Shown here: piece by piece, positions 1 to 10,447 of the stretch
Numbering within the stretch: the stretch's first letter is position 1
How the letters are laid out: the number at the start of each line of letters is the position of its first letter
NCBI GenBank assembly: GCA_023136205.1
Contig: JAGLRQ010000036.1
Span: forward strand, 1 to 10,447
DNA from: Candidatus Auribacterota bacterium
GTDB lineage: Bacteria > Auribacterota > UBA6266
Direction: 5' to 3'
DNA length: 10,447 bases
The notes under the pieces: generated by a model
Seen by the model: the letters and a program-made list of their open reading frames with translations, nothing else
Told to the model about the DNA's origin: nothing
The model's database searches: none
Position numbers and translations under genes: made by a program

Positions 1-662
1 AGGGATACCAGCCGCCTGGAATCACCAAAATTTAGAAAAAACATCCCTCCGGGCCGCAGATGCCTGCGTATATTGGCAAAAACCCGGGAAGGGTTTACAA
101 TATTTGACAGAGTAGCATAACAGGTAATTGCGTCAAAAGTTTTCGTAAAAGGCCAATCCCCTTCAAAATCCGCCCGTAAAACATCAACTCCGTAAGTTTC
201 ACGCCCCAATGCAATCATAGCATCGCTGATATCTATGCCGGAAGCCCTGTATCCGGACTGTGAAAGAGCGTTAACAAACAAACCATCCGAACAGCCTAAA
301 TCCAGAATACGGGCATTACAGGACAAATGCGGGGCCATCCATTTAACGCGTATTTCCGCGGTGCGCCTGCGTATATCTTTTTCACCAAGATACGAGTAAT
401 AATTAAGCATTGTAGAATCGGTTGGCCCTTTAGTCTTATGAGACCAGTATTCCAATGTTTCATAAAGATGTTCAAGGCTTTCTTTGTCCAAGACAGGATC
501 CTGATAAACCAGCCCGCAGGACAGGCAACGGACAAAACAAAATTCTTTACCAAGAAAAGGAACCGAATAAAGCGGTTTGCTCTCCCGGCTTCCGCACAAA
601 TCACACCTCTTAACAACGAATTTTAATTTTGACAGATCAAGCGGATTGAATTTTTCACTCAT
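1..662 (-). CDS. Class I SAM-dependent methyltransferase with N-terminal CxxC...CxxC zinc ribbon (3' end lies beyond the left window edge)
   Basis: Not in the ORF track because the frame reaches position 1 without a stop. The ATG at 662..660 overlaps the upstream TGA (661..659) as ATGA. I translated the frame by hand with no stops: MSEKFNPLDLSKLKFVVKRCDLCGSRESKPLYSVPFLGKEFCFVRCLSCGLVYQDP...NARILDLGCSDGLFVNALSQSGYRASGIDISDAMIALGRE...FDAITCYATLSNIVNPSRVFANIRRHLRPGGMFFLNFGD. The Zn-ribbon cysteines lie at 516..605. SAM motif I (ILDLGCSDG) is at 282..308, followed by GIDIS and LRPGGMFF, typical of the class I fold. Confidence 0.8.
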   Translation of the reverse strand, partial: MSEKFNPLDLSKLKFVVKRCDLCGSRESKPLYSVPFLGKEFCFVRCLSCGLVYQDPVLDKESLEHLYETLEYWSHKTKGPTDSTMLNYYSYLGEKDIRRRTAEIRVKWMAPHLSCNARILDLGCSDGLFVNALSQSGYRASGIDISDAMIALGRETYGVDVLRADFEGDWPFTKTFDAITCYATLSNIVNPSRVFANIRRHLRPGGMFFLNFGDSRRLVS

Positions 663-2362
663 TCAGAACAAGCCTCATTGAATTTATTACACTGCCATCC
701 ACAGGCTGTTTTTTCACCCAGAATACCGTCTTGAGGCAGTTGGAAAGGGCCATCCGGAACAACATTAAACTTTTTGCGTTTTTTAAATATATACAGATGG
801 TAATTTTTATCAAAACGTTTTCTGAACCACCACCAGTAATTCTTAACATAAGTGGTGGCATCTTTATCCCTTACAGCAATCATCACATCAAGAATTGAAA
901 TAAAAAACCTGAAGGGAAGCATCCAGAAAATCCTGTAAAACTTCATTTTCAACATAAGCCTCTTTGCCCATGGAGGTAAAAAACTCATCAATCTAAGCAT
1001 CCCGCGATAACCGTTTAGAAGACGTAAACGCTCGGGATCCGTTATTATAGAACCCCCTGTCATATAATTATCATGCAATCCGGCATTAAGCCTTTCTATT
1101 TCGCAATCATCCAATTCACCGCCCCTGACACCATGTTCAATGAGGACAGTAGCAGGCATATACTGAATTATAAAAGGGGCAATCCGATAACAATGACGCA
1201 AAGGAATTAAAAATTCCGCAAAACCCATCAACTCTTTTTTAAGAGATTCCAATACCTCTTCTTCCGATAAAGGAACAGGATTTCCCTTCTCCGTATGCTT
1301 TGGTAAACGCGGAAGTCCAAGAATATAATCATAGGCATAAGGCTGGCCAACTTTCTCCAGAATTTCTGTTGCCCTGTAAATATCCTCATTTGAATCAATA
1401 CGATTGAGAATTTTATTTCTGATTTCTTCATTCCAGCATTCAATCCCGATTTGAATAGCAAAACATCCGGCTTCTTTCATGGCTCGAACAGAAGCTTCAG
1501 TAACCAAAAGAGGATGGCTGAAACAACGGAAGGGAAGATTAATTTCCTCTTTGTAACGGGAGAAAAATTCGACTGTCCATTTTTCACTGGCAGACATCAC
1601 CGGCTGACGAAAATCTATCCACGAACATTTATATTTAATAATGTGGGCCTTTATTTCCTCTATAAGCGAATTAACAGAACGTTCCCGAAGCCTGGGGCCT
1701 TTTAATCTTTCAGCTTCCTCCCCTAAAAATGAAAGAGAACAATATGTGCACTTATAAGGACATCCCCTGGACGGACACGCGAGATAAGAATATTTTATCG
1801 GGACGTGCGGTGCAAATAATTCTTTATCTATAACAGGAAGGCTGTCAATATCTTTTATTAAAGGACGCATCTTATTCTTAATTAAAGTTCCATTTTCAAT
1901 CCGGAACCAGAGATTTTCAATGCTATAATCTATTTTCCCGGCATCTATGCTGTCAGCCAGCTCTAAGAGAGGATATTCTCCTTCCCCGAGACAGATTATA
2001 TCCACGGTAGGATCATCAGAAAATAGAACTTCATTTGGAGCAGAATGGGGATGTATCCCCCCAAAAATAACGGGGACGCGATAATATTTCTTTAATTCTT
2101 TCGCAAGATTCTTCATTTCCTGATACTGAATTGTCTGAACGTGGAACCCGACAAGGTCCGGCTCCAACTCAATAATACGTTGAAGCACCAGATCTTTTTG
2201 GCCGAACAATTTAGCCAGGAAATCAATTTTCAAATAATTCTTATCATCAAACAATGCCTGGTCATAAACAAGGTGAACCTCATGTCCATGTTCCTTAAGC
2301 ATTGCGGAAAGCGCCTGTAAAGCAATGTTTTCCCACCCTATCGCGACTAACACACATTTCAT
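659..2362 (-). CDS. Cobalamin (B12)-binding-domain radical SAM enzyme (class B rSAM), divergent paralog, probable methyltransferase or other C-H functionalising enzyme
   Basis: 567-aa ORF with an ATG at 2362..2360 in an ATGA overlap with the upstream GT2 stop. The N-terminal flavodoxin-like B12-domain pattern reads MKCVLVAIGWENIALQALSAMLKEHGHEVHLVYD...VIFGGIHPHSAPNEVL...IICLGEGEYPLLEL. The radical SAM CX3CX2C motif (CPYKCTYC) is at 1739..1762. The C-terminal tail is hydrophobic and basic. Confidence 0.85.
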   Translation of the reverse strand: MKCVLVAIGWENIALQALSAMLKEHGHEVHLVYDQALFDDKNYLKIDFLAKLFGQKDLVLQRIIELEPDLVGFHVQTIQYQEMKNLAKELKKYYRVPVIFGGIHPHSAPNEVLFSDDPTVDIICLGEGEYPLLELADSIDAGKIDYSIENLWFRIENGTLIKNKMRPLIKDIDSLPVIDKELFAPHVPIKYSYLACPSRGCPYKCTYCSLSFLGEEAERLKGPRLRERSVNSLIEEIKAHIIKYKCSWIDFRQPVMSASEKWTVEFFSRYKEEINLPFRCFSHPLLVTEASVRAMKEAGCFAIQIGIECWNEEIRNKILNRIDSNEDIYRATEILEKVGQPYAYDYILGLPRLPKHTEKGNPVPLSEEEVLESLKKELMGFAEFLIPLRHCYRIAPFIIQYMPATVLIEHGVRGGELDDCEIERLNAGLHDNYMTGGSIITDPERLRLLNGYRGMLRLMSFLPPWAKRLMLKMKFYRIFWMLPFRFFISILDVMIAVRDKDATTYVKNYWWWFRKRFDKNYHLYIFKKRKKFNVVPDGPFQLPQDGILGEKTACGWQCNKFNEACSE

Positions 2363-3084
2363 AGTTTTTTATTTTTCTCCCTGATTTCCCAAAAAAACTT
2401 TAGCATGTCATATATAGTCCGCGCTATAACAGAAAAACGAGTGTTAGTTGCCCTGCCATACATACGTCTTTTCATTCTCGCGGGCACTTCCGCGATAATC
2501 AATCCTTGCCTTCGCGCTTTAACCAGAATTTCAACGAGATAAAAAAACCTTGAATTGTCAAATCGGATTGTACCCGAAGAAAACAAATTTCGCCGATAAA
2601 CCTGAATCCAGTTTACATCCGTCAACCCAATATTAAACAGCAATGGAATCAGGATCCTATTATAAACAAACGATGCAAAGCGGGCAAAACCGCTATATCC
2701 AAGCCGTTCAACCCTGTACCCCACCACAATGTCACACACATCCATTCTGGGCAGATAAGCTTCCATATCTTCAATATCCAGAGGGTTATCAACAGGCACA
2801 AACATTACATATTTTTTGCCCGCGTGAGCAATTCCTGTTCGAAAGGCTCCGCCGCTGCCCTGATTAGTCCCATGATGAAAACAATAAATATTCGGGTAAC
2901 AACTTGCAATGCTATCGGCAATTTGCCCTGTTTTGTCCGTACTGCTGTCATCAACAATAATCATTTCAAAATCAAGATTTAATGACTGAAAAGTTTTCAT
3001 GGTATGCAAAACTGCATTTTCCAGAATTTTCTCTTCGTTATGCGCAGGTATCACAACTGAAACACTGTATCGGGAATTAGTCAT
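2359..3084 (-). CDS. Glycosyltransferase family 2 (GT-A fold), soluble DPM1-like type without a C-terminal TM hairpin
   Basis: GT2 signatures: VSVVIPAHNEEKILENAV and MIIVDDSSTDKTGQIA. I place the start at ATG 3084..3082 (MTNSRYSV...), preceded by AGGAGA at 3094..3089 and overlapping the upstream stop as ATGACTAA. The ORF-track start at 3108 is a TTG with no Shine-Dalgarno (SD) sequence. Confidence 0.85.
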   Translation of the reverse strand: MTNSRYSVSVVIPAHNEEKILENAVLHTMKTFQSLNLDFEMIIVDDSSTDKTGQIADSIASCYPNIYCFHHGTNQGSGGAFRTGIAHAGKKYVMFVPVDNPLDIEDMEAYLPRMDVCDIVVGYRVERLGYSGFARFASFVYNRILIPLLFNIGLTDVNWIQVYRRNLFSSGTIRFDNSRFFYLVEILVKARRQGLIIAEVPARMKRRMYGRATNTRFSVIARTIYDMLKFFWEIREKNKKL

Positions 3085-4183
3085 AAAATCTCCTAACTGC
3101 TCCAGCAACAGTATCGATTTGTTTATCGGTAATCTCCGGAAACATTGGAAGAGAAATTATTTTTTCTGACAGCTGTTCCGCCACAGGGCAGCTGCCTTTT
3201 TTATATCCGAGCGATGTAAAAGCCCGATGGAGATGGATAGGGACAGGATAATGGACTCCGCATCCTATATCCTGTTTAGTCAAATAATCTAAAAGCTCAT
3301 CACGCCGTTCGCATGTAAGGACAAAAAGGTGGAAAACGTGTCTGGAAATATTATCAAAGTCCAACACCGGCAGATGCAGGCCGTTTATATTTTTAAGTTT
3401 TTCGGTATAGCGGCGGGCCGCGTAAAACCGCTTTTTGTTCCATTCATCGAGAAACTTAATCTTAATATTTAAGATCGCTGCCTGCAGGGAATCCAGACGG
3501 CTGTTCGTCCCAGGAAATTCGTGTATATATTTTTTAATAGAACCGTAATTACGAAGCAACCTTAGTTTTTCCGCGACAGAATGGTCTTCAGTTACTATCA
3601 TTCCACCGTCCCCAAACGCTCCAAGATTTTTACCGGGATAAAAACTGAAACATCCAACAGCCCCAAAACTGCCCACGCGCCGGCCTTCCCACATAGCTCC
3701 ATGCGCCTGACACGCATCCTCAATAAGAATAAGATTGTGTTTTCGCGAGAATGCTGTTACAGCATCCATATCCATACTCCGGCCATAAAGATGCACCGGT
3801 AAAATTGCTTTTGTCCGGCCGGTAAGACGGCTGGAAGCATCAGTCAGATCCATAAGAAACGATTCAGGATTAACATCAACAGGAACCGGAATAGAGCCCA
3901 GGTCATAAACACTAAGAGCTGTAGCGATAAATGTATTTGCCGGAACCAGAACTTCATCGCCGGGGCCGATGCCGAGAGCCTGACACGCAAGACGTAAAGC
4001 ATCCGTTCCGCTGGCCACTCCAACCGCCTCTTTTACTCCAAGGTACGCGCAAAATCGTTTTTCAAAACGCTGCACTTCAGGGCCAAGGACAAACATTCCC
4101 GAAGAGCAAACATCTTCAAAAGCTTTTTTAAATTCTTTTCTATAAAGGGTGTATTGCTGCACAACATCAACAAAAGGTATCAT
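3077..4183 (-). CDS. DegT/DnrJ/EryC1/StrS-family PLP-dependent nucleotide-sugar aminotransferase
   Basis: 368 aa. Family hallmarks: MIPFVDVVQQY...FVLGPEVQRFEKRF...GVASGTDALRLACQALGIGPGDEVLVPANTFIATA...IEDACQAHGA...SFYPGKNLGAFGDGGMIVT. The candidate PLP lysine K185 is encoded at 3629..3631. Further hallmarks are NSRLDSLQAAIL and SLPMFPEITD. The ATG at 4183 is preceded by AAGGA at 4196..4192. Confidence 0.9.
   Translation of the reverse strand: MIPFVDVVQQYTLYRKEFKKAFEDVCSSGMFVLGPEVQRFEKRFCAYLGVKEAVGVASGTDALRLACQALGIGPGDEVLVPANTFIATALSVYDLGSIPVPVDVNPESFLMDLTDASSRLTGRTKAILPVHLYGRSMDMDAVTAFSRKHNLILIEDACQAHGAMWEGRRVGSFGAVGCFSFYPGKNLGAFGDGGMIVTEDHSVAEKLRLLRNYGSIKKYIHEFPGTNSRLDSLQAAILNIKIKFLDEWNKKRFYAARRYTEKLKNINGLHLPVLDFDNISRHVFHLFVLTCERRDELLDYLTKQDIGCGVHYPVPIHLHRAFTSLGYKKGSCPVAEQLSEKIISLPMFPEITDKQIDTVAGAVRRFYD
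3089..3094 (-). promoter_or_regulatory. Shine-Dalgarno (AGGAGA) for the soluble GT2, embedded in the 3' end of the aminotransferase gene
   Basis: The minus strand reads AGGAGATTTTATGACTAA. The SD, the start codon and the upstream stop all fall within 18 nt. Confidence 0.55.
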
Positions 4184-4191
4184 ATTGCCTA

Positions 4192-4196
4192 TCCTT
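4192..4196 (-). promoter_or_regulatory. Shine-Dalgarno-like AAGGA for the aminotransferase, overlapping the oxidoreductase stop codon
   Basis: The minus strand reads TTAAGGATAGGCAATATG, with 8 nt between the SD and ATG 4183. Confidence 0.4.
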
Positions 4197-5208
4197 AATT
4201 TATATTCTGCGGTATCCCTCCAGCCCGCATGGATTTATGAGCCGCAACAAGTGTCCGAGTAACGCCGAGGTCAAATCCTCCATCTACAATGTTTTCTTCA
4301 TTATCCAAAACCAGCCTTACAAAAGCGTCGCTCATCTGACTAACCGGTTCACGCATATCAACTTTTGGGCTAATAATATCTCCATCCCGCAGTAAAAAAC
4401 GAAAATTGCCAAAATCAGGCTCAACAGAATCAGAAATACAAATCCCCTTTTCAAAAAGGCGCACCGGTTCCAGATTATTCAAGTCGTTAAATACCGCCCT
4501 GGCCTTACTGCCGATAACATGTACCCGCCGCTCCTTATTTGAATCAACCCAGCTTACATGAATCTGGCCAACTATACCTCCGGGATAAAAAAGTGTTATA
4601 AAAGCAATGTCCGCCTGGTCAAAACCTAAAGGACTTGCTGATACGGCGGAAACTTTCTCCGGAACAGCGTTTAAGAGATAATTCATAATAGAAACATCAT
4701 GAGGGGCAAGGTCCCACGCGACGCTAACATCTTTACGAACAAGCCCCATGTGCGTTCGCATTGCTGTCAAATAATACAATTTCCCAAGTCTTTCCGAGTC
4801 AATTAACTCTTTAAGTTTCCTAACAGCGTTGTTAAAAAGAAAGGTATATCCAACCATTAGCTTACACCCTGATGACTTAGCAATAGCACACAGTTCCTCA
4901 CATTTCGCCCCATCCAAAGCAAGCGGTTTCTCGCTAAAAACATGCTTACCCGCTAGAAGAGCTTTCTTTACCAAATCATAATGGGTTGACGCGGGAGTAA
5001 TAATTGCCACCGAATCAATATCAGAGGCATTTACAACCAGAGATGCATCGGTAACACATTTACATTCTTTGGGAAGTAATCCTTTCACTCCTTTAAATGA
5101 AGATTCCAAAACATCACAGACATATTTGAGATTTACCCTGGGATGCCCGACAAAATTTCGAACAATATTCGGGCCCCAGTGGCCAAGTCCTATAATTCCT
5201 ATGTTCAT
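4195..5208 (-). CDS. Gfo/Idh/MocA-family NAD(P)-dependent oxidoreductase, probable nucleotide-sugar dehydrogenase (WbpB/GnnA-like role inferred)
   Basis: The Rossmann N-terminus is MNIGIIGLGHWGPNIVRNF. The family EKP motif (VFSEKPLA) and DLAPHD are present. The ORF-track start at 5232 is a TTG. GGAGG at 5219..5215 sits 3 nt before ATG 5211 and 6 nt before ATG 5208, so I prefer 5208, with 5211 possible. Confidence 0.85.
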   Translation of the reverse strand: MNIGIIGLGHWGPNIVRNFVGHPRVNLKYVCDVLESSFKGVKGLLPKECKCVTDASLVVNASDIDSVAIITPASTHYDLVKKALLAGKHVFSEKPLALDGAKCEELCAIAKSSGCKLMVGYTFLFNNAVRKLKELIDSERLGKLYYLTAMRTHMGLVRKDVSVAWDLAPHDVSIMNYLLNAVPEKVSAVSASPLGFDQADIAFITLFYPGGIVGQIHVSWVDSNKERRVHVIGSKARAVFNDLNNLEPVRLFEKGICISDSVEPDFGNFRFLLRDGDIISPKVDMREPVSQMSDAFVRLVLDNEENIVDGGFDLGVTRTLVAAHKSMRAGGIPQNIN

Positions 5209-5214
5209 CATTTT

Positions 5215-5219
5215 CCTCC
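5215..5219 (-). promoter_or_regulatory. Shine-Dalgarno (GGAGG) for the oxidoreductase gene
   Basis: The minus strand reads TTGGAGGAAAATGATGAAC. This is the strongest SD in the window and lies in the only gap longer than 21 bp. Confidence 0.6.
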
Positions 5220-5240
5220 AAAACGTATTCAAAATCTTTT

Positions 5241-6767
5241 TTAACTCATCCTGAATATCTTTATAAATTCCCTCATCGATATAGAGGTTTTTCTCTTCAG
5301 CAGAACATTAAAAAATAACTCACCGAATTTAACGAGCATTATAACAAATAAAACAATAAGCGCGGGCATCTTTTTAAGAAAACCAAATATTTTTCTGCCG
5401 GGGTTAAACCACCTCATGCCTGTATCGGGCCTGGTAAATATCTTCTTAATTCTGTTAATATCAAAATAAAACGCAAAATAACTAAATAAAATATCCATTC
5501 TTAATTCTTCTTCAGAACTTCCAATCGGGACATATGAAAAGGGTATTTTTTTAAAAGGATTTTCAATAAAGGCCGATACCGAGTTGAAATTTTCGTATAG
5601 CCCCCGCACATTTAACCTGTTTTCTCTTTTTGCAATCTCATAGAGCTCGGTTCCGGGATATGGTGTCGCATTATTAAACCTCACCATATCCAATTTCAAT
5701 ACCTTGCTCATTTTTGCACAATTAAGTCTCTCTTCGTGAGTTTCACCCGGGATACCATACATAAATACGGCACTGATATGAAACCCAATCTGTCCGGCTC
5801 CCTTGGCGGCTTCGACACATTGTTTAACAGTTTCACTTTTCTGAAGAACCTTCATCATTCTCTCAGATGCTGTTTCTAAACCCAAGGAAAGATTTTTAAA
5901 ACCAGTGTTATATAAAGCTTCAAACAGTTTATAATCAAAACTATCCGCTCTTGCCTGAAAAGAAAAAGTCATCTTTTTATCAAACCCTCTTTTCTTAAGT
6001 TCTTCCAGAAGAATATATATTCTCTCTTTATTAACCAGAAAATTATCATCAAGAAAAAGAATATGATTCTGGTGATACTTATTATGTAAGATATCCAGTT
6101 CATTAACTACAGATTCAACCGATCTAAACCTGTATCTTTTTCCGGTTATAAGCCTGTTGCTGCAAAAAATACAGTCAAAAGGGCATCCCCGCGAAGTTAC
6201 TATAGAACCAAGGTCATATCTTGCAGGGTTAAAAAGATGGAATGGAAAGGGCGGTAATTCATTAAGATTTTCTATAAAAGGCGCATCCCTGTTATGAATA
6301 ACCCGGCCGTTTCGCCTATAAGAAAGCCCATCTAAATGGAAAAAATCCTTTCTCCCTTTTACAAGCCCGTATAATTCGGGCAAAGTTTTCTCTCCTTCAC
6401 CCCTAATGACAACATCAATATGGCCATAAGACAAAACTTCCTCCGGCACAGCCGTCGGATGAATTCCCCCGAAACAAATCACAGAATCAGGATAAAGTTC
6501 TTTTACCCTCTTTGAAGTCAGCACAGCGGTTTTAAAGGCTGCCGTTAAAACACTAAATCCAAAAATATAAGGGGGTTCTGTCTCTTTTATATATTTTTCT
6601 ATCAGCCCAAGAGTATTACTTTCGACATGCTCATCTATAAACCTGGCCTTAATTTTCTTGTTTTCGGTAACAGCCAGAAGAGATCCAATCCCTATCGGCA
6701 GATTAGTGCGCGAAAAGGGCTGAAATATCTTCAAAGTATCTTTTGGTGAGGAATTAATTAATATCAT
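5241..6767 (-). CDS. Cobalamin (B12)-binding-domain radical SAM enzyme (class B rSAM), canonical-looking paralog
   Basis: 508 aa. B12-domain pattern: LPIGIGSLLAVTENKKIKARFIDE...VICFGGIHPTAVPEEVL...VVIRGEGEKTLPEL. The CX3CX2C motif (CPFDCIFC) is at 6162..6185. Core rSAM motifs are SLGLETASERMMKVLQK and MYGIPGETHEE. A C-terminal hydrophobic segment (KMPALIVLFVIMLVKFGELFFNVLL) is at 5298..5372. The ATG at 6767 overlaps the upstream gene by 14 bp. Confidence 0.9.
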   Translation of the reverse strand: MILINSSPKDTLKIFQPFSRTNLPIGIGSLLAVTENKKIKARFIDEHVESNTLGLIEKYIKETEPPYIFGFSVLTAAFKTAVLTSKRVKELYPDSVICFGGIHPTAVPEEVLSYGHIDVVIRGEGEKTLPELYGLVKGRKDFFHLDGLSYRRNGRVIHNRDAPFIENLNELPPFPFHLFNPARYDLGSIVTSRGCPFDCIFCSNRLITGKRYRFRSVESVVNELDILHNKYHQNHILFLDDNFLVNKERIYILLEELKKRGFDKKMTFSFQARADSFDYKLFEALYNTGFKNLSLGLETASERMMKVLQKSETVKQCVEAAKGAGQIGFHISAVFMYGIPGETHEERLNCAKMSKVLKLDMVRFNNATPYPGTELYEIAKRENRLNVRGLYENFNSVSAFIENPFKKIPFSYVPIGSSEEELRMDILFSYFAFYFDINRIKKIFTRPDTGMRWFNPGRKIFGFLKKMPALIVLFVIMLVKFGELFFNVLLKRKTSISMREFIKIFRMS

Positions 6768-7407
6768 TTCTTTTTAATTTCTCTTTATATCTCATGCTGA
6801 CACCATCAAAATAGGCAGAAGTTCCTGCATCCGCGACACACATGATGTAAAGAGACTGGGTATCAACCGGAACTTTATAAGGAATCTTAAGTTTTTCCCA
6901 TTGTCCACTATTTTGGTAGAACACTCTATTATAAGGATCATCCCTGCCATTGATGGAAACAACATAAATATAAACTTTGTCAGGACTTTTATTTGCCGAT
7001 TTAATCCACGCGTCAATAATTATATTTTTGTTTAACAGACTATATAATTTATCTCTGGGAACACAAAAAATTATATGGGTAGCTTCAGTTTTATCCGCCT
7101 CCACTTCCACAGAAGACGTTCCTATTTTAACATTTTCTGCACCGGTTGCCCTTCGGATTCCCTGCTGTTTAGGAAAAACCCAACCAGAAGGAACAGAAAA
7201 TTTTCCATTGCTCCACGATTCAAAACCGCCGTTTGTCTCAGGCCTCAGGATAGTGTTTATTATATCATCATCCGATTGGGCAATCTCACTGATAGCACAT
7301 TCCCTGTTTTTTGACATAAACAGTACAATTACAATAATTAATCCTATAAAAAGCCACATTAGTTTTTTTGTTGCAACCCTACGCCGCTGTCCTGAAACTT
7401 TTTTCAT
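6754..7407 (-). other. C-terminal module of the polytopic protein: signal-anchor-like segment plus a roughly 155-aa CBM/jelly-roll-like domain
   Basis: An in-frame ATG at 7407..7405 begins MKKVSGQRRRVATKKLMWLFIGLIIVIVLFMSKN. The TM is encoded at 7315..7362. After it comes ...ETNGGFESWSNGKFSVPSGW...GTSSVEVEA...IIIDAWIKS...VYIYVVS...QWEKLKIPYKVP...LYIMCVADAGTSAYFDGVSMRY. The alternating beta-strand pattern and the NGGFE-x-W opening resemble CBM_4_9-type carbohydrate-binding modules. Confidence 0.5.
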
Positions 7408-8994
7408 TACTTCAGCACTTTCTGCCGACACAGAACAATATTTTTTATCCCAGTCTTCCTGAAAACATTTTTTGATTGTTGCGGACCAAGAGTTAGTTTT
7501 ATTTTCATCTATACGGTATCTCACAGACCCTTCAAAAATACTTACAACCCCTTTGACTAAAACCGCTAATCCAACTGACAAAAGAAGAACAAACACAGGA
7601 AAATAATTTGTTGTGTGAACATCTGCCGGAGGAAAGTACACACAAAGAATGCCAAGCATATAAAATCCCTGAAATACAACTGTAATCAAAGGCCCAAAAT
7701 TCTTTTTGCGGAAAAAGAAAAGTACCAAAAGGCTAAAAAGTACAAGCCACGGGAAAATGCGGGTGAGCTTAAGAATTTTAGGATCGTACCTAACATACTT
7801 TTTATTGCTGTCCAATATTCCGAATTTTTTATCAGTATCCAGAATACCAAAAAAGGCGGGGCCTCCTATATAACGAACTCTGTCTTTTGGTGTCATTGCT
7901 ATTCCGGAACAGAAATTGGTTTTGAAGTTACGCAGAAAAATATCCGGCCTCTCTTTAAATAAACAAACTATCTCTTTCATTACAAATTTATCATATTCCT
8001 GAATTCCCACTTTATTAAGATCAGGCCCGCCCCTCTCCATCACCCAATCTATCGCAGTCAGATCAGCACTGTCTTTTACGCCAAACGGATTCGGGTAAGC
8101 GCCCAATCCCTGAATAACATTGTGCCATTTACCTCTTACAGACAGGGTATATCGATCATAATATTTCTGTGTAATAAGTACCTGCGGTACCAGCAATATC
8201 CCCTGTCCCATCAACATGGCAAGGATCAATATCAGACTTCTTTTATAGTTTCGTTCACGAAAAAAAATCAGAGGAGACAAAAACAAAGGAAGAAAGAGAA
8301 AACTGAGACGAAGAGAAGTAGCAAATCCTATTACCACGCCGTATAAAAAAAACAATGAAAACAAAACTTTCAGGGAATATGTTCTGCTTTCAGGTTTGTA
8401 GATTGCAGCCCAGAATAAAAGGCTCAAGGCTGAAAATGGAATAGACCAGTAGTAGTAAGATACCCAGCTCATCATCATAATAGATGGCTTGAATAAGGCG
8501 TAAAGCACTGCCGCGAAACTACCGCCAAGAGGGCCCGCTATTGACCTGCCGGCAAAAAATAGAAGAATTATAACAAGAAGGTCCAACATCATTTGATATC
8601 TAACAACCGTCATTGCCAGATTCTGTATACCCCTTGTACCCTCCTTGAATATCAGGCTCAGGATAAACTCCCAGCCTTTCTCGTTTTCAAAAGACGCGGT
8701 CGCGGGTTCTTTAGGATAATGGGTAAAAACATAATCATCCGGATTTTCTTTTATTTTCAAGCCTTCTTCAAAGTTGTAACCTCCAGGTTCCGTCCAAAAA
8801 TGTGAGGCCATCTCAACATAAAATTCAAAACCACCATTTATTCCAAAGTTTTTCTTAATATCAACAGCCCTATACCCCGCGCCTACAACCAGTGAGATTA
8901 AAAGTATCAAAAAAATAACTGGTTTTACAAATCTGTGGCGGGTTTTCAGAAATCTTTCATATAAATTTACTGATATTTTCCGTATTTTTGGCAT
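6754..8994 (-). CDS. Polytopic membrane protein (about 11 TM segments), putative GT-C-type lipid-carrier-dependent glycosyltransferase (or polymerase/ligase-like), with a C-terminal extracytoplasmic beta-sandwich module
   Basis: A long ORF with strongly hydrophobic segments that fit the positive-inside rule. The N-terminus is basic (KIRK, KTRHRFVK). There are two large loops, at about residues 48-130 and 281-417 in ORF-track numbering. The basic stretch RRRVATKK precedes the last TM. The gene sits immediately downstream of an ArnC/GtrB-type GT2. The start is uncertain: the track's 9009 is a TTG, and GTG 8997 and ATG 8994 follow. I list ATG 8994. The family assignment was not verified. Confidence 0.7.
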   Translation of the reverse strand: MPKIRKISVNLYERFLKTRHRFVKPVIFLILLISLVVGAGYRAVDIKKNFGINGGFEFYVEMASHFWTEPGGYNFEEGLKIKENPDDYVFTHYPKEPATASFENEKGWEFILSLIFKEGTRGIQNLAMTVVRYQMMLDLLVIILLFFAGRSIAGPLGGSFAAVLYALFKPSIMMMSWVSYYYWSIPFSALSLLFWAAIYKPESRTYSLKVLFSLFFLYGVVIGFATSLRLSFLFLPLFLSPLIFFRERNYKRSLILILAMLMGQGILLVPQVLITQKYYDRYTLSVRGKWHNVIQGLGAYPNPFGVKDSADLTAIDWVMERGGPDLNKVGIQEYDKFVMKEIVCLFKERPDIFLRNFKTNFCSGIAMTPKDRVRYIGGPAFFGILDTDKKFGILDSNKKYVRYDPKILKLTRIFPWLVLFSLLVLFFFRKKNFGPLITVVFQGFYMLGILCVYFPPADVHTTNYFPVFVLLLSVGLAVLVKGVVSIFEGSVRYRIDENKTNSWSATIKKCFQEDWDKKYCSVSAESAEVMKKVSGQRRRVATKKLMWLFIGLIIVIVLFMSKNRECAISEIAQSDDDIINTILRPETNGGFESWSNGKFSVPSGWVFPKQQGIRRATGAENVKIGTSSVEVEADKTEATHIIFCVPRDKLYSLLNKNIIIDAWIKSANKSPDKVYIYVVSINGRDDPYNRVFYQNSGQWEKLKIPYKVPVDTQSLYIMCVADAGTSAYFDGVSMRYKEKLKRNDIN
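7798..7851 (-). repeat. In-frame 2 x 27-bp imperfect tandem duplication encoding FGILDTDKK / FGILDSNKK
   Basis: The minus strand reads TTTGGTATTCTGGATACTGATAAAAAA (7851..7825), then TTCGGAATATTGGACAGCAATAAAAAG (7824..7798). By hand alignment, 18 of 27 nt and 7 of 9 aa are identical. Confidence 0.8.
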
Positions 8995-8998
8995 CACA

Positions 8999-9937
8999 TT
9001 AACTATCAAAATTGACTTTTTCTTTAATAATTATATAGGGTTTTTTTCGGACCTGGGAATGAATGGCTACTACATATTCACCTACCATTCCTATAAAAAA
9101 GAGTTGAATACCTAAAAACAGCAGCATTAAAATAATAAAACCCGCGGCAACTGATATTTGGGTTTTATAAATGCTTAATTTTAAAATAAGGTAAATAAAA
9201 CCCATCAAAAAACTCAAAACCGATAATCCGATACCAGTAAGAGTACATAATCTAACCGGCGCTATCGAACTACTTACAATACCGTTAATCGCAAAATCTA
9301 TCAGAAAAGCGAATGTGCTTTTTGATTTTCCTTTGGGCCTTGTTCCTCTAATATACTCTACACCGATTTGATTGAAACCAACCGAAGCCATCAGGCCTCT
9401 TATATACGGCCTGTAATCTTCTATTTTAACCAGTTCATCAACTATTTTTCTGTCCACTAAACGAAACCCTCCGGAATTCAACGGCGGCTTATCTTCCGAC
9501 AAAGAATTGATCAATCTATAAAAAATTCTGCGGACAAAAGCCATCAAAAAAATTTCCCGGCTTTTATTTCTAACCCCGTATACAGCAGAATATCCATCCT
9601 CCCAGTGCTTTATAAAAGTGGTTATTAAGTCCGCGGGATCTTTCAAATTTGCCTCATAACAAATTACAGCGGCCCCTGCCGCGTATTTGTAACCTGTCAT
9701 TAAACCTCTCAGGACACCAAAGTTTTTGGAAAACACTAATATTTTTACTTTTTTATCTTTTTGGGCTATTTCTTTCAAAATAGAAACCGTTGCGTCAGTA
9801 CTGCAATTATCCATAAATATGTGTTCGTAATCGTACTTTTTTTCTAATCCCGCAAATACCCTTTTTATCTCTTTATAAACCTCCGCGACTGTTTCTTCTT
9901 CATTCCGAACGCCGGTTATAACAGAAATCTTTTTCAT
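8999..9937 (-). CDS. GT2 polyprenyl-phosphate glycosyltransferase (ArnC/GtrB/CsbB/DPM1-like) with a C-terminal two-helix membrane anchor
   Basis: 312 aa. Signatures: ISVITGVRNEEETV, FMDNCSTDAT and DGYSAVYGVRNKSRE. Two C-terminal TM helices end in the family-typical GIQLFFIGMVGEYVVAIHSQVRKKPYIIIKE. The ATG at 9937 is preceded by GAGGAA at 9948..9943. Confidence 0.9.
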   Translation of the reverse strand: MKKISVITGVRNEEETVAEVYKEIKRVFAGLEKKYDYEHIFMDNCSTDATVSILKEIAQKDKKVKILVFSKNFGVLRGLMTGYKYAAGAAVICYEANLKDPADLITTFIKHWEDGYSAVYGVRNKSREIFLMAFVRRIFYRLINSLSEDKPPLNSGGFRLVDRKIVDELVKIEDYRPYIRGLMASVGFNQIGVEYIRGTRPKGKSKSTFAFLIDFAINGIVSSSIAPVRLCTLTGIGLSVLSFLMGFIYLILKLSIYKTQISVAAGFIILMLLFLGIQLFFIGMVGEYVVAIHSQVRKKPYIIIKEKVNFDS

Positions 9938-9942
9938 AAAAA

Positions 9943-9948
9943 TTCCTC
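9943..9948 (-). promoter_or_regulatory. Shine-Dalgarno (GAGGAA) for the membrane-anchored GT2
   Basis: The minus strand reads ATGAGGAATTTTTATG, with 5 nt between the SD and ATG 9937. Confidence 0.5.
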
Positions 9949-9958
9949 ATATTTCAAT

Positions 9959-10447
9959 TTATACGGCCTTTAACATCTTTTCAAAAATCTTACGAATATA
10001 TTCACGCTGTTTTTCGCATATCCCCGGATAAACTCCAACCCAGAAAAGACGATCCATTACTAAATCGGTATTAAATAACTTTCCGGAAACCCTGTATTTT
10101 ACATCCCGGTAAGCAGGCTGCCTGGTCAAATTCCCGCCAAACAACATACGAGTCGCTATTTTATTATTTTCCAAATAATTCACAATGCCATCCCGTGTAA
10201 AAGGCGCATTTTCTTTTACCAATATGGGAAAACCAAACCAGCTCGGTTCGGAATTCTTCTCAGCACGCGGTAAAATAAAATGTTTTTTATGTTTTTCCAA
10301 AAGATTATAGATAAAACTAAAATTTTTTCGGCGCAGGCTGATAAAATCCTTAAGTTTTTTTAACTGAGCACAGCCAATTGCTGCCTGCATATCGGTTATC
10401 TTAAGGTTATATCCGATATGCGAATAAATATATTTATGGTCATAACC
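9959..10447 (-). CDS. rfbH: RfbH/DdhC (E1)-like NDP-4-keto-6-deoxyhexose 3-dehydrase family protein within the DegT superfamily (N-terminus lies beyond the right window edge)
   Basis: The track lists 9959..10390, but the frame stays open to 10447: GYDHKYIYSHIGYNLKITD precedes MQAAIGCAQLKKL. The C-terminal region (SWFGFPILVKE...ATRMLFGGNLTRQPAYRDVKYRVSGKLFNTDLVMDRLFWVGVYPGI) closely follows what I recall of the Salmonella RfbH C-terminus (AGNLTRQP...VKYRV.G.L.NTD..M...FW.G.YPG). The catalytic His-for-Lys diagnostic position lies outside the window. Confidence 0.75.
   Translation of the reverse strand, partial: GYDHKYIYSHIGYNLKITDMQAAIGCAQLKKLKDFISLRRKNFSFIYNLLEKHKKHFILPRAEKNSEPSWFGFPILVKENAPFTRDGIVNYLENNKIATRMLFGGNLTRQPAYRDVKYRVSGKLFNTDLVMDRLFWVGVYPGICEKQREYIRKIFEKMLKAV

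What the first reader, a model, noticed from the sequence alone, without database searches (positions are those of the whole stretch)
1..10447. One operon combines an Arn/Gtr-type lipid-carrier glycosylation module with two cobalamin radical SAM enzymes and a Zn-ribbon methyltransferase
Seen in sequence: nine minus-strand genes with gaps of 0-29 bp. There are ATGA overlaps at 659-662 and 2359-2362, an ATGACTAA overlap at 3077-3084, and a 14-bp overlap at 6754-6767. Established knowledge: a DegT-family aminotransferase, a GT2 with a C-terminal TM hairpin and a polytopic transferase together form the logic of three known systems. These are ArnB/ArnC/ArnT (lipid A aminoarabinose), GtrB/GtrC (O-antigen glucosylation) and CsbB/YfhO (teichoic acid glycosylation). 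In each, the sugar is loaded on undecaprenyl phosphate, flipped, and transferred outside the membrane. Class B rSAM enzymes methylate unactivated carbons, for example GenK and GenD1 on aminoglycoside sugars and HpnP/HpnR on hopanoids. Inference: this locus would build and export a methylated amino or deoxy sugar onto an extracytoplasmic acceptor, probably in an anaerobe. I cannot match this gene set to a characterised pathway from memory. No GtrA- or ArnEF-like flippase is in the window.
Basis: partly seen in the sequence, partly recalled or inferred. Interest (0 to 1): 0.7.

Follow-up and report, generated by a model that had tools for sequence, protein, structure and literature searches.

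The report
Radical-enzyme sugar-decoration gene cluster fragment
This is a piece of a very long gene array from an uncultured anaerobic bacterium that appears to build unusual deoxy and amino sugars, load them on a membrane lipid carrier, alter them with vitamin-B12-dependent radical enzymes and attach them outside the cell membrane, and no such pathway has been described.

Summary
There are nine tightly packed minus-strand genes, and every overlap sits at the stated coordinates. The window is a whole 10,447-bp contig of a Candidatus Auribacterota MAG. It is a fragment of a co-directional array of at least 29 kb and 24 genes. That array holds five B12-radical SAM (rSAM) genes, one further radical SAM gene, three or four polytopic transferases and a YfhO homologue.

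- The cut gene at the right end is an E1/RfbH 3-dehydrase, not an aminotransferase. It ends a CDP-3,6-dideoxyhexose module that feeds a GtrB-type GT2.
- The polytopic protein has a GT-C fold and belongs to a rare family with no Pfam model. It carries a C-terminal CBM-like domain.
- The complete DegT gene most resembles C-3 aminotransferases and pairs with the Gfo/Idh/MocA dehydrogenase.
- Gfo, DegT, the TM-less GT2 and the 567-aa rSAM form a cassette kept at 53-75% identity in four other lineages. Relatives of the 508-aa and/or 478-aa rSAM accompany it. The GT-C partner varies.

This enzyme set mirrors the gentamicin garosamine steps (GenD2, GenS2, GenN, GenD1). The chemistry, the lipid carrier and the acceptor are inferred. 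I found no characterised homologous locus.

The parts
9959..10447 (-). 3' part (last 162 codons) of an E1/RfbH-type CDP-4-keto-6-deoxyglucose 3-dehydrase gene. The 5' end is cut by the contig end. The full protein is 437 aa on L001.
   Evidence: The best NCBIfam hit is RfbH, E 1e-70 over model positions 278-437. The full-length protein scores 543 bits to Yersinia E1 (3bcx/3bb8). It has FYPAHH at residue 217 and CWCx7C at residue 252.
8999..9937 (-). GT2 with a C-terminal two-helix membrane hairpin: a GtrB/PgfS/ArnC-type polyprenyl-phosphate glycosyltransferase (312 aa).
   Evidence: It matches PF00535. It scores 204.7 bits to PgfS and 120.6 bits to ArnC, both below cut-off. It scores 172.8 bits over its full length to Synechocystis GtrB 5ekp. 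Hydrophobic segments lie at residues 230-292.
6754..8994 (-). Polytopic GT-C-fold transferase of a family with no Pfam model (746 aa). It has about 11 TM helices and an invariant Glu105 in the first outside loop.
   Evidence: The AF2 model has pLDDT 85 and pTM 0.85. Foldseek hits are AglB at 1.3e-7, EmbA/B/C, ArnT at 8.5e-5 and STT3, all at probability 1.00. No Pfam hit to the TM part in any of 29 family members. Only 37 of 1.84 billion representatives reach E<=1e-30. Invariant residues come from alignment A1.
6757..7233 (-). C-terminal beta-sandwich, carbohydrate-binding-module-like domain of the GT-C protein (residues ~588-746), predicted to lie outside the cytoplasm.
   Evidence: CBM_4_9 hit at E 7.7e-5, below cut-off. 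Foldseek matches to CBM16, CBM61, CBM4 and CBM22 have TM-scores of 0.7-0.78 normalised to the target. Paralogues in other lineages carry LamG (PF13385) in this position.
5241..6767 (-). Class B (cobalamin-binding) radical SAM enzyme, 508 aa, with a C-terminal hydrophobic helix.
   Evidence: It matches PF02310 and PF04055, with CX3CX2C at residue 195. The best NCBIfam hits are ApyD, HpnJ and BchE, all far below cut-off. The family has more than 120 clusters at 55-64% identity. The C-terminal helix at 459-491 has a Kyte-Doolittle hydropathy (KD) of 2.25 and is conserved in 102 of 117 members. A 54.5%-identical orthologue sits in the Desulfarculus cassette L029.
4195..5211 (-). Gfo/Idh/MocA NAD-dependent sugar dehydrogenase (337-345 aa), probably a nucleotide-sugar 3-dehydrogenase.
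   Evidence: It matches PF01408 and PF22725. The best NCBIfam hit is UDP-GlcNAc 3-dehydrogenase at 129 bits, below cut-off. PDB hits include 7bvj, which I recall as GnnA. It is 53-61% identical in the cassette in L022 and L029-L031.
3077..4183 (-). DegT/DnrJ/EryC1-family PLP aminotransferase (368 aa), of the C-3 aminotransferase type.
   Evidence: PF01041 at E 1e-119. The PLP lysine motif SFYPGK is at residue 180. The closest solved proteins are 7b0d, DesV 2oga, QdtB 3frk and WbpE. ArnB scores clearly lower.
2359..3084 (-). TM-less GT2 (241 aa) whose catalytic domain resembles ArnC, DPMS, AglJ and PpgS. It is a candidate polyprenyl-phosphate sugar synthase.
   Evidence: It matches PF00535. It aligns over the whole catalytic domain to ArnC (9hwj, residues 7-228) and to P. 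furiosus DPMS (5mlz, residues 7-234). NCBIfam gives weak hits to ArnC, AglJ and PpgS. It is 57-61% identical and always adjacent to the rSAM567 orthologue.
659..2362 (-). Class B radical SAM enzyme, 567 aa. It is the core enzyme of the conserved cassette.
   Evidence: It matches PF02310 and PF04055, with CX3CX2C at residue 201. About 55 clusters are 64-80% identical across phyla. The AF2 model has pLDDT 92. Foldseek hits are TsrM at 4e-19, MgmA, OxsB, AprD4, CysS and TokK.
1..662 (-). 5' 220 codons of a class I SAM methyltransferase with an N-terminal four-Cys zinc ribbon. The full protein is 309 aa. The 3' end is cut by the contig end.
   Evidence: It matches Methyltransf_11, _25 and _23. CxxC pairs lie at residues 20 and 46. 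The full length is read on L001 16106-17035. It is 65% identical in L022 and absent from L029-L031.

Best explanation
The window is a fragment of a modular envelope-glycosylation locus of an uncultured anaerobe of the candidate phylum Auribacterota. The locus glycosylates through a lipid carrier. Two modules meet inside the window.

Module A lies mostly upstream of the window. It runs RfbF, RfbG, an epimerase/reductase, a 437-aa B12-rSAM and the E1/RfbH dehydrase. Together these would make a CDP-3,6-dideoxyhexose-type sugar. The GtrB-type GT2 would load that sugar on polyprenyl phosphate. After flipping, the new-family GT-C enzyme would transfer it to an acceptor outside the membrane, which its CBM-like domain may recognise.

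Module B runs Gfo dehydrogenase, C-3 aminotransferase, TM-less ArnC/DPM1-like GT2, the 567-aa B12-rSAM and the Zn-ribbon methyltransferase. The 508-aa rSAM flanks it, and the 478-aa rSAM lies just outside the window. I propose it oxidises a nucleotide sugar at C-3, aminates it and puts it on a lipid carrier. It would then tailor the sugar at unactivated carbons, most likely by C-methylation, and at the amine by N-methylation. This is the same four-enzyme logic that turns xylose into garosamine in gentamicin.

Shown: gene content and order, the family and fold assignments, and conservation of the modules. Inferred: the nucleotide-sugar identities, polyprenyl phosphate as carrier, methylation as the rSAM chemistry, the order of steps, and the acceptor.
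For: - Source and extent: the window equals NCBI contig proteins MCK4947137-145 of a Candidatus Aureabacteria/Auribacterota MAG. It is 99.99% identical to L001. The array covers scaffold positions 70435-99713.
- Module A: the E1 match is 543 bits, with the His and iron-sulfur motifs present. RfbG is most like CDP-glucose 4,6-dehydratase, at 215 bits. The GT2-TM protein matches GtrB at 172.8 bits. The whole block is 66-73% identical and in the same order in L023.
- GT-C: AF2 plus Foldseek give AglB, Emb, ArnT and STT3 for the membrane part and a CBM fold for the C-terminus. Glu105 in the first outside loop is invariant.
- Module B: the aminotransferase is nearest to DesV, QdtB and WbpE. The Gfo protein is nearest to UDP-GlcNAc 3-dehydrogenase models. 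The soluble GT2 aligns over its catalytic domain with ArnC and DPMS.
- Cassette conservation: Gfo, DegT, GT2 and rSAM567 are kept at 53-75% identity in L022, L029 (Desulfarculus), L030 (marine) and L031. Orthologues of rSAM478 (56-70%) and/or relatives of rSAM508 (35-55%) accompany them.
- Lipid-carrier logic: in L031 the cassette sits beside a GT-C of a different family (PMT_2). In L030 it sits beside an unknown 767-aa membrane protein. This fits the sequence GT2, then lipid-linked sugar, then GT-C.
- rSAM class: four of the six solved B12-rSAM folds that match rSAM567 are methylases.
- Precedent: GenD2, GenS2, GenN and GenD1 perform 3-oxidation, transamination, N-methylation and B12-rSAM C-4 methylation of a sugar (PMC4340712).
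- Host: the phylum is inferred to be anaerobic and has cobalamin transporters (PMC9324843).
Against: - No gene reaches the curated cut-off of any equivalog model, so substrate identities are guesses.
- No flippase, E3 reductase or acceptor gene was recognised in the DNA I hold.
- The top NCBIfam hits of the rSAMs include non-methylating enzymes (HpnJ, BchE). The fold matches include OxsB and AprD4. Methylation is therefore only the most common outcome for the class, not a result.
- The Desulfarculus cassette (L029) has no GT-C nearby. It has a PF03706 membrane protein instead.
- The methyltransferase is missing from three of the four other cassettes.
- Homology to the Gen enzymes themselves could not be tested. 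GenN did not appear among the PDB hits of the methyltransferase.
- The cassette sample is small: five lineages.
Confidence: 0.55

Rival explanations
1. Glycolipid head-group remodelling. The GT2 enzymes would put the sugar on a membrane lipid, such as a hopanoid, a prenol or another lipid. The B12-rSAMs would then carry out non-methylating radical chemistry on it. Examples are ring contraction to a cyclitol as HpnJ does, dehydration as AprD4 does, or rearrangement as OxsB does. The end product would be a modified membrane glycolipid, not a sugar passed on to an outside acceptor.
For: - HpnJ and BchE are among the best NCBIfam hits of rSAM508, rSAM478 and rSAM437.
- OxsB and AprD4 are among the fold matches.
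- The Desulfarculus cassette L029 carries a PF03706 membrane protein and no GT-C. From memory, PF03706 is the family of HpnL, so this would echo hpnI-J-L.
- rSAM508 has a conserved C-terminal hydrophobic helix.
Against: - HpnJ scores are 77-161 bits against a cut-off of 577.6.
- No hopanoid genes (hpnG, hpnH, shc) occur in about 29 kb of the array or in the related loci.
- GT-C transferases sit in or beside the cassette in L001, L022 and L031.
- The window's own GT-C has a lectin-like outside domain, which implies transfer to a glycan or protein acceptor.
Confidence: 0.2
2. Ordinary O-antigen or capsule locus. The GT2 enzymes would be cytoplasmic transferases that build a repeat unit on undecaprenyl diphosphate. 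The polytopic proteins would be polymerases or ligases. The rSAMs would modify nucleotide sugars before transfer.
For: - RfbF, RfbG and RfbH are classic O-antigen dideoxyhexose genes.
- Gfo plus DegT pairs occur in O-antigen sugar pathways such as WbpB/WbpE.
- The array is long and co-directional.
Against: - No Wzx, Wzy, WaaL, Wzz, ABC exporter or initiating phosphoglycosyl transferase was seen in the roughly 29 kb held.
- The membrane GT2 is specifically GtrB/PgfS/ArnC-like.
- The polytopic protein matches OST, Emb and ArnT folds, not Wzy or WaaL.
Confidence: 0.1
3. Secondary-metabolite cluster, for an aminoglycoside-like or RiPP product. The enzymes would tailor a small molecule, and the membrane proteins would serve export or self-resistance.
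For: - The enzyme set matches GenD2, GenS2, GenN and GenD1.
- The best NCBIfam hit of rSAM508 is the RiPP enzyme ApyD.
- The aminotransferase's top PDB hit is a scyllo-inositol transaminase.
Against: - No 2-deoxy-scyllo-inosose synthase, precursor peptide or other scaffold gene is present.
- The ApyD score is 165 bits against a cut-off of 750.
- Several GT-C and YfhO transferases are embedded in the array.
- The cassette is spread across many phyla of uncultured anaerobes at high identity, which is unlike niche antibiotic clusters.
Confidence: 0.05

Closest known systems
GtrB/GtrC (with GtrA) O-antigen glucosylation, and the related PgfS/PgfM and CsbB/YfhO systems
   Same: The GT2 with a C-terminal TM hairpin is homologous to GtrB over its full length (172.8 bits to 5ekp). 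It gives its best NCBIfam hit to PgfS. A polytopic transferase gene follows it directly. A YfhO-family gene (1057 aa) lies farther down the same array.
   Different: - The sugar donor would be a CDP-dideoxyhexose-type sugar, not UDP-glucose or UDP-GlcNAc.
- The polytopic partner belongs to none of the GtrC, PgfM or YfhO families and has a CBM-like tail.
- No GtrA-type flippase is present.
- B12-rSAM genes are interleaved.
ArnB/ArnC/ArnT (with ArnA, ArnD, ArnE/F) lipid A aminoarabinose pathway
   Same: The overall logic is shared: a modified amino sugar is placed on undecaprenyl phosphate by a GT2, tailored while lipid-linked, and transferred by a GT-C. Both GT2 proteins align with ArnC. The GT-C model matches ArnT 5ezm and 5f15.
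   Different: - Every Arn equivalog model scores far below cut-off: ArnC 120.6 against 529, ArnB 227 against 631.
- The aminotransferase is of the C-3 type and pairs with a Gfo dehydrogenase.
- ArnA, ArnD and ArnE/F are absent.
- The GT-C gives no PMT_2 hit.
Gentamicin A2 to X2 tailoring (GenD2, GenS2, GenN, GenD1) that forms garosamine
   Same: The same four enzyme classes sit side by side: an NAD dehydrogenase acting at C-3, a PLP aminotransferase, a class I SAM methyltransferase and a cobalamin rSAM. In gentamicin the rSAM C-methylates the neighbouring carbon (PMC4340712).
   Different: - The Gen enzymes act on a soluble pseudotrisaccharide antibiotic. Here the set surrounds a polyprenyl-phosphate-type GT2 and sits among GT-C transferases.
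- Sequence homology to the Gen proteins was not tested.
- Up to three B12-rSAMs accompany the cassette.
- The methyltransferase is replaced by an acyltransferase plus a Rieske protein in some lineages.
HpnI/HpnJ/HpnK (with HpnL) hopanoid glucosamine-to-cyclitol ether pathway
   Same: A GT2 and a B12-rSAM act on a lipid-bound amino sugar. HpnJ is among the best model hits for three of the rSAMs. A PF03706 membrane protein sits in the Desulfarculus cassette.
   Different: - Scores are far below the HpnJ cut-off.
- No hopanoid core genes are present.
- There is no HpnK-type deacetylase.
- GT-C transferases are present.
CDP-3,6-dideoxyhexose (abequose, paratose, ascarylose) pathway: RfbF, RfbG, RfbH(E1), RfbI(E3)
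   Same: RfbF-like and RfbG-like genes and a clear E1 orthologue are present. The E1 protein has the His-for-Lys substitution and the CxCx7C [2Fe-2S] motif.
   Different: - No E3 reductase gene is in the array.
- A B12-rSAM (437 aa) sits between the reductase/epimerase and E1.
- The product appears to go to a GtrB-type enzyme, not to an O-unit transferase.

Membership tests
Class B (cobalamin-dependent) radical SAM enzymes | N-terminal B12-binding domain followed by a radical SAM core with a CX3CX2C cluster motif | tested here: met
   Both proteins match PF02310 and PF04055 above cut-off. CX3CX2C lies at residues 195 and 201. The rSAM567 model matches TsrM, MgmA, OxsB, CysS and TokK.
Class B (cobalamin-dependent) radical SAM enzymes | Methyl transfer to an unactivated carbon (methylase subclass) | not testable with these tools
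   No sequence rule separates methylases from OxsB-, AprD4-, HpnJ- or BchE-type members. Both kinds appear among the best hits.
GT-C fold glycosyltransferases | Polytopic N-terminal membrane module with the GT-C fold, and a soluble domain outside the membrane | tested here: met
   The AF2 model has pLDDT 85. Foldseek gives probability 1.00 to AglB, EmbA/B/C, ArnT and STT3. The C-terminal domain has a CBM fold. This rests on a predicted structure only.
GT-C fold glycosyltransferases | Conserved acidic catalytic residue in the first extracytoplasmic loop | tested here: inconclusive
   Glu105 is invariant in 29 family members and lies in the loop after TM1. I did not check by superposition that it corresponds to the catalytic Asp or Glu of ArnT or PglB.
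Known Pfam GT-C families (PMT_2/ArnT, YfhO, others) | Match to the family HMM | tested here: not met
   None of the 29 members hits any GT-C Pfam model, even at E<=10. Of 10 distant relatives, one gave a sub-threshold PMT_2 hit at E 0.007.
GtrB-type polyisoprenyl-phosphate glycosyltransferase | GT2 catalytic domain plus a C-terminal TM hairpin, homologous to GtrB over its full length | tested here: met
   172.8 bits over residues 4-305 to Synechocystis GtrB 5ekp. Two hydrophobic helices span residues 230-292. The PgfS equivalog model scores 204.7 against a cut-off of 500, so it is not a PgfS orthologue.
Arn pathway (ArnB/ArnC/ArnT) | Proteins reach the ArnB and ArnC equivalog cut-offs, and ArnA, ArnD, ArnT and ArnE/F are present | tested here: not met
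   ArnC scores 120.6 against 529. ArnB scores 227 against 631. No formyltransferase, deformylase, PMT_2 or ArnE/F gene occurs in the array.
E1/RfbH CDP-4-keto-6-deoxyglucose 3-dehydrase | DegT fold with His replacing the PLP lysine, and a CxCx7C [2Fe-2S] motif | tested here: met
   The full-length protein on L001 has FYPAHH at residue 217 and CWCGPGDDNTC at residue 252, and scores 543.7 bits to 3bcx. Only the last 162 residues lie in the window, and both motifs are outside it. The RfbH model scores 238.6 bits on that fragment.
E1/RfbH CDP-4-keto-6-deoxyglucose 3-dehydrase | Partner E3 (RfbI) reductase | tested here: not met
   No E3-like flavin/iron-sulfur reductase gene occurs in the 29 kb held. 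From memory, general ferredoxin or flavodoxin reductases can substitute, as reported for SpnQ.
Sugar C-3 aminotransferases (DesV, QdtB, WbpE) | PLP lysine present; closest relatives act at C-3; paired with an enzyme that makes the 3-keto sugar | tested here: met
   SFYPGK is at residue 180. Scores are DesV 353.6, QdtB 336.7, WbpE 253.7 and ArnB 171.8 bits. The adjacent Gfo/Idh/MocA gene is conserved with it in five lineages. Regiochemistry itself was not shown.
Hopanoid HpnI/HpnJ system | The rSAM reaches the HpnJ equivalog cut-off, and hopanoid genes are nearby | tested here: not met
   HpnJ scores 160.7 bits (rSAM508) and 76.7 bits (rSAM567) against a cut-off of 577.6. No hpn genes are in the loci held.
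Gentamicin GenD2/GenS2/GenN/GenD1 set | Sequence homology to the Gen enzymes beyond shared superfamily | not tested
   No Gen sequences were available in the tools. GenN structures did not appear among the PDB hits of the methyltransferase at E<=0.01. The resemblance is one of enzyme classes and gene adjacency.

The most novel reading that the evidence does not exclude
A widespread pathway, enriched in anaerobes and not described before, exists in which sugars already mounted on a membrane lipid carrier are edited by two or three cobalamin-dependent radical SAM enzymes. GT-C transferases then attach them to the cell surface. One of those GT-C enzymes belongs to a new family with a lectin-like domain. 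This would be the first case of class B radical SAM chemistry built into primary cell-envelope glycan assembly. It might also account for unexplained heavily methylated surface glycans, such as the anammox S-layer O-glycan.
Probability: 0.35. Interest if true: 0.8.

Novelty: new variant of a known kind. Interest (0 to 1): 0.62.

Why it matters
Class B radical SAM enzymes are known almost entirely from antibiotics, cofactors, hopanoids and RiPPs. Here several of them are fixed parts of lipid-carrier glycosylation loci. One cassette (dehydrogenase, aminotransferase, GT2, rSAM) is kept at 53-75% protein identity across unrelated, mostly uncultured lineages.

If the inference holds, it defines three things:
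- a new route to C-branched or C-methylated amino and deoxy sugars on bacterial surfaces;
- a new GT-C family with a built-in carbohydrate-binding domain;
- a compact four-to-six-gene set that can be expressed and assayed.

It also gives candidate genes for the unassigned methylated surface glycans of anammox and related bacteria.

Tried and rejected
I extended the locus by anchoring on window genes instead. I did not reach the true ends of the array.
- The genome and metagenome scans with the GT-C profile returned only 7 and 8 loci. Neighbourhood evidence therefore rests on about a dozen contigs.
- One look-up (P0184, Latescibacteria) returned gene calls without DNA.
- Five literature searches found no description of this gene set. 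A sixth was rejected for its syntax.
- The Kuenenia S-layer glycan paper names no genes, so that link stays speculative.
- Rfam found nothing in 42.6 kb around the window, so no cobalamin riboswitch was detected.
- Promoter and terminator scans were at shuffle level and do not settle the operon question.
- I first read the C-terminal hydrophobic helix of rSAM567 as a membrane anchor and then rejected that. It contains an invariant Arg and Asp, and the model packs it into a helical domain.
- I considered a TcaB9-type sugar C-methyltransferase identity for the Zn-ribbon methyltransferase. The match is only 20.7 bits, there is no PF08421 hit, and the tool rules barred a structure prediction of the full protein.
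- PDB sequence searches for the rSAMs and the methyltransferase were too distant to assign substrates.

Full report
**Observation.** The window carries nine genes, all on the minus strand. The first and the last are cut by the window ends.
- ATGA overlaps at 662-659 and 2362-2359.
- ATGACTAA at 3084-3077.
- A 14-nt overlap at 6754-6767.
- Gaps of 4 to 29 nt elsewhere.

Pfam and NCBIfam confirm the domain calls:
- two DegT-family genes;
- two GT2 genes, one with a C-terminal hydrophobic hairpin;
- a 746-aa polytopic protein;
- two proteins with a B12-binding domain plus a radical SAM domain, with CX3CX2C at residues 195 and 201;
- a Gfo/Idh/MocA oxidoreductase;
- a class I methyltransferase with two CxxC pairs.

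Promoter-like and terminator-like sites occur at shuffle frequency, and none falls in an intergenic gap. This fits co-transcription but does not prove it.

**Source and true extent.** The window's proteins are exact matches to NCBI entries MCK4947137-145 of a MAG labelled Candidatus Aureabacteria/Auribacterota, on a contig of 10,447 bp. The window is therefore a whole MAG contig. It is 99.99% identical to part of a 291-kb ENA scaffold.

Walking along that scaffold shows a co-directional array of at least 29 kb. In order it reads:
1. B12-rSAM (483 aa)
2. 543-aa membrane protein
3. polytopic paralogue (512 aa)
4. RfbF-like
5. RfbG-like
6. epimerase/reductase
7. B12-rSAM (437 aa)
8. RfbH (437 aa)
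9. the window genes
10. radical SAM (347 aa)
11. two TIGR04076 proteins
12. B12-rSAM (478 aa)
13. SDR
14. 146-aa membrane protein
15. YfhO-family protein (1057 aa)
16. 421-aa protein

"Nine genes, one operon" is thus an effect of the contig ends. The phylum is inferred to consist of anaerobic fermenters with cobalamin transporters (PMC9324843).

**The genes, re-read.**
- *Right-hand DegT fragment.* This is not an aminotransferase. The full-length protein scores 543 bits to Yersinia E1 (CDP-6-deoxy-L-threo-D-glycero-4-hexulose 3-dehydrase). It has FYPAHH in place of the PLP lysine and a CxCx7C iron-sulfur motif. With the RfbF-like and RfbG-like genes upstream, it ends a CDP-3,6-dideoxyhexose-type module.
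- *GT2 that follows.* It is homologous over its full length to GtrB (172.8 bits to 5ekp), and next to ArnC.
- *Polytopic protein.* No Pfam model matches its membrane part in any of 29 family members. An AlphaFold model (pLDDT 85) matches AglB/STT3, EmbA/B/C and ArnT with Foldseek probability 1.00. Its last ~160 residues match CBM16, CBM4, CBM22 and CBM61 modules. A glutamate in the first outside loop is invariant. The family is rare: a profile search of 1.84 billion representatives found 37 proteins at E<=1e-30. Named members come from Auribacterota, Omnitrophota, Brocadiales and Desulfobacterota.
- *Complete DegT.* It keeps the lysine. It is closest to the C-3 aminotransferases DesV, QdtB and WbpE, well ahead of ArnB. 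The neighbouring Gfo/Idh/MocA protein is most like UDP-GlcNAc 3-dehydrogenases.
- *Soluble GT2.* It aligns across its catalytic domain with ArnC and archaeal Dol-P-Man synthase.

I compared all cluster proteins with every related locus I could fetch. Two blocks are conserved independently of each other.
- *Block A.* Polytopic paralogue, RfbF, RfbG, epimerase, rSAM437, RfbH, GtrB-like GT2 and then the GT-C. It recurs at 66-73% identity in L023.
- *Block B.* Gfo, DegT, soluble GT2 and rSAM567 recur at 53-75% identity in L022, in a Desulfarculus MAG (L029), in a marine contig (L030) and in L031. An orthologue of rSAM478 (56-70%) and/or relatives of rSAM508 (35-55%) accompany them.

rSAM567 has about 55 clusters of 64-80% identity across phyla. 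rSAM508 has more than 120 clusters at 55-64%.

The GT-C partner of Block B varies:
- the new family in L001 and L022;
- a PMT_2 protein in L031;
- an unknown 767-aa membrane protein in L030;
- none in L029, which has a PF03706 membrane protein instead.

The methyltransferase is kept only in L022. L030 and L031 carry a hexapeptide acyltransferase and a Rieske protein in its place. So both rSAM families do recur, but with the dehydrogenase, the aminotransferase and the soluble GT2, not with the GT2-TM/polytopic pair as such. More loosely, contigs that carry the new GT-C family almost always also carry B12-rSAM, GT2 and methyltransferase genes (L006, L007, L015, L021, L024).

**Mechanism.** The best-supported reading is a modular system that glycosylates through a lipid carrier. 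Each module makes an unusual nucleotide sugar and loads it on polyprenyl phosphate with a GtrB/ArnC/DPM1-type GT2. A GT-C enzyme then transfers it outside the membrane.

Block B contains the same four enzyme classes that convert the xylose of gentamicin A2 into garosamine. Those are 3-oxidation (GenD2), transamination (GenS2), N-methylation (GenN) and cobalamin-rSAM C-4 methylation (GenD1) (PMC4340712). I therefore propose a 3-amino sugar, probably N-methylated here and N-acylated in L030 and L031, that carries one or more rSAM-installed C-methyl groups.

The rSAM567 model (pLDDT 92) matches every solved B12-rSAM: TsrM, MgmA, CysS and TokK, which are methylases, and OxsB and AprD4, which are not. 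The class is certain. The chemistry is not.

rSAM508 ends in a conserved hydrophobic helix. That would suit a membrane-bound substrate. The hydrophobic helix of rSAM567 contains an invariant Arg and Asp and packs into a helical domain, so I do not count it as an anchor.

Carrier identity, order of steps, flippase and acceptor are all inferred or unknown.

**Rivals.**
1. *Head-group remodelling of a membrane glycolipid by non-methylating radical chemistry, as in HpnI/HpnJ.* In favour are the HpnJ and BchE model hits and the PF03706 gene in L029. Against are scores far below cut-off, the absence of hopanoid genes and the recurrent GT-C partners.
2. *A conventional O-antigen or capsule locus.* RfbFGH fit this. 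Against it, no Wzx, Wzy, WaaL, ABC exporter or initiating transferase is present, and the GT2 and GT-C identities point elsewhere.
3. *A secondary-metabolite cluster.* The Gen-like set fits. Against it, there is no scaffold gene, and the cassette is widely spread among uncultured anaerobes.

**Comparison with known systems.** The locus works like the Gtr, Arn, CsbB-YfhO and PgfS systems, but it is a member of none of them. Every equivalog model is far below cut-off, and the GT-C family is new to Pfam. It shares genuine E1 and GtrB homologues with the dideoxyhexose and Gtr systems. It shares only enzyme-class logic with gentamicin tailoring. Five literature searches found no description of the gene set.

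**Verdict.** It is also less self-contained, because the window is a fragment. I rate it a new variant of a known kind of system, with interest 0.62.

Noticed in passing
L001 17035-21474 (just outside the window, downstream of the methyltransferase); also L023 13031-17926 and L020 18313-22934: A sub-module recurs in an unrelated contig and in a Brocadiales MAG. It comprises a non-B12 radical SAM (347 aa), two tandem Cys-rich TIGR04076-family proteins, the B12-rSAM of 478 aa and an SDR. In the other two loci a DUF362/ferredoxin gene accompanies it. Its role is unknown.
   Followed up: partly
L020 (Brocadiales MAG GCA_030586635.1) 392-12934: An anammox-order genome carries the new GT-C family: a 55%-identical homologue with a LamG tail, and a 51%-identical homologue of the 543-aa membrane protein. 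Two further LamG-domain proteins (748 and 897 aa) lie beside them, and I did not establish that these belong to the family. The Kuenenia S-layer O-glycan has methylated HexNAc and a 174-Da 'dimethyl-deoxyhexose', and no biosynthetic genes have been assigned to it (PMC5088730). A link is possible but untested.
   Followed up: partly
L025 17532-20705 and L021 2801-5914: A very long YfhO-family protein (1057 aa; PF09586 at 34 bits, above cut-off) closes the visible part of the array. It is 46% identical to a 1037-aa protein beside the GT-C paralogues in L021. At least two different polytopic transferase families therefore share these loci.
   Followed up: partly
window 5241-6767 (rSAM508 family): Close relatives (55-64% identity) are recorded from Omnitrophota, Patescibacteria and a record labelled Aenigmarchaeota. 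This suggests very wide distribution or lateral transfer among small-celled uncultured lineages.
   Followed up: no
window 659-2362, protein residues ~478-497: The hydrophobic helix FWMAPFRxFIxxLDxMIAI is almost invariant in about 55 orthologue clusters, including the embedded Arg and Asp. It looks like a functional element, perhaps a site for a lipid or a partner protein, and not a simple anchor.
   Followed up: partly
L025 17085-17525 and L029 1635-2069: A 146-aa membrane protein gives a sub-threshold YdjM/PF04307 hit. It follows the SDR in the Auribacterota array. A 43%-identical homologue lies directly upstream of Gfo in the Desulfarculus cassette. It may be a hydrolase or a flippase partner.
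   Followed up: no
L030 7635-8150 and 13446-14396; L031 13251-14769: In the two cassettes that lack the Zn-ribbon methyltransferase, a hexapeptide-repeat acyltransferase and a Rieske iron-sulfur protein are present. This hints that the 3-amino group is acylated there, and that an oxygen-dependent step replaces one tailoring reaction.
   Followed up: no
L002/L026 versus window 2626-3488 and 8845-9065: The assembly from a second sample matches the window in three blocks separated by short breaks, and gene calls are missing there. These are most likely scaffold gaps, not real deletions.
   Followed up: no
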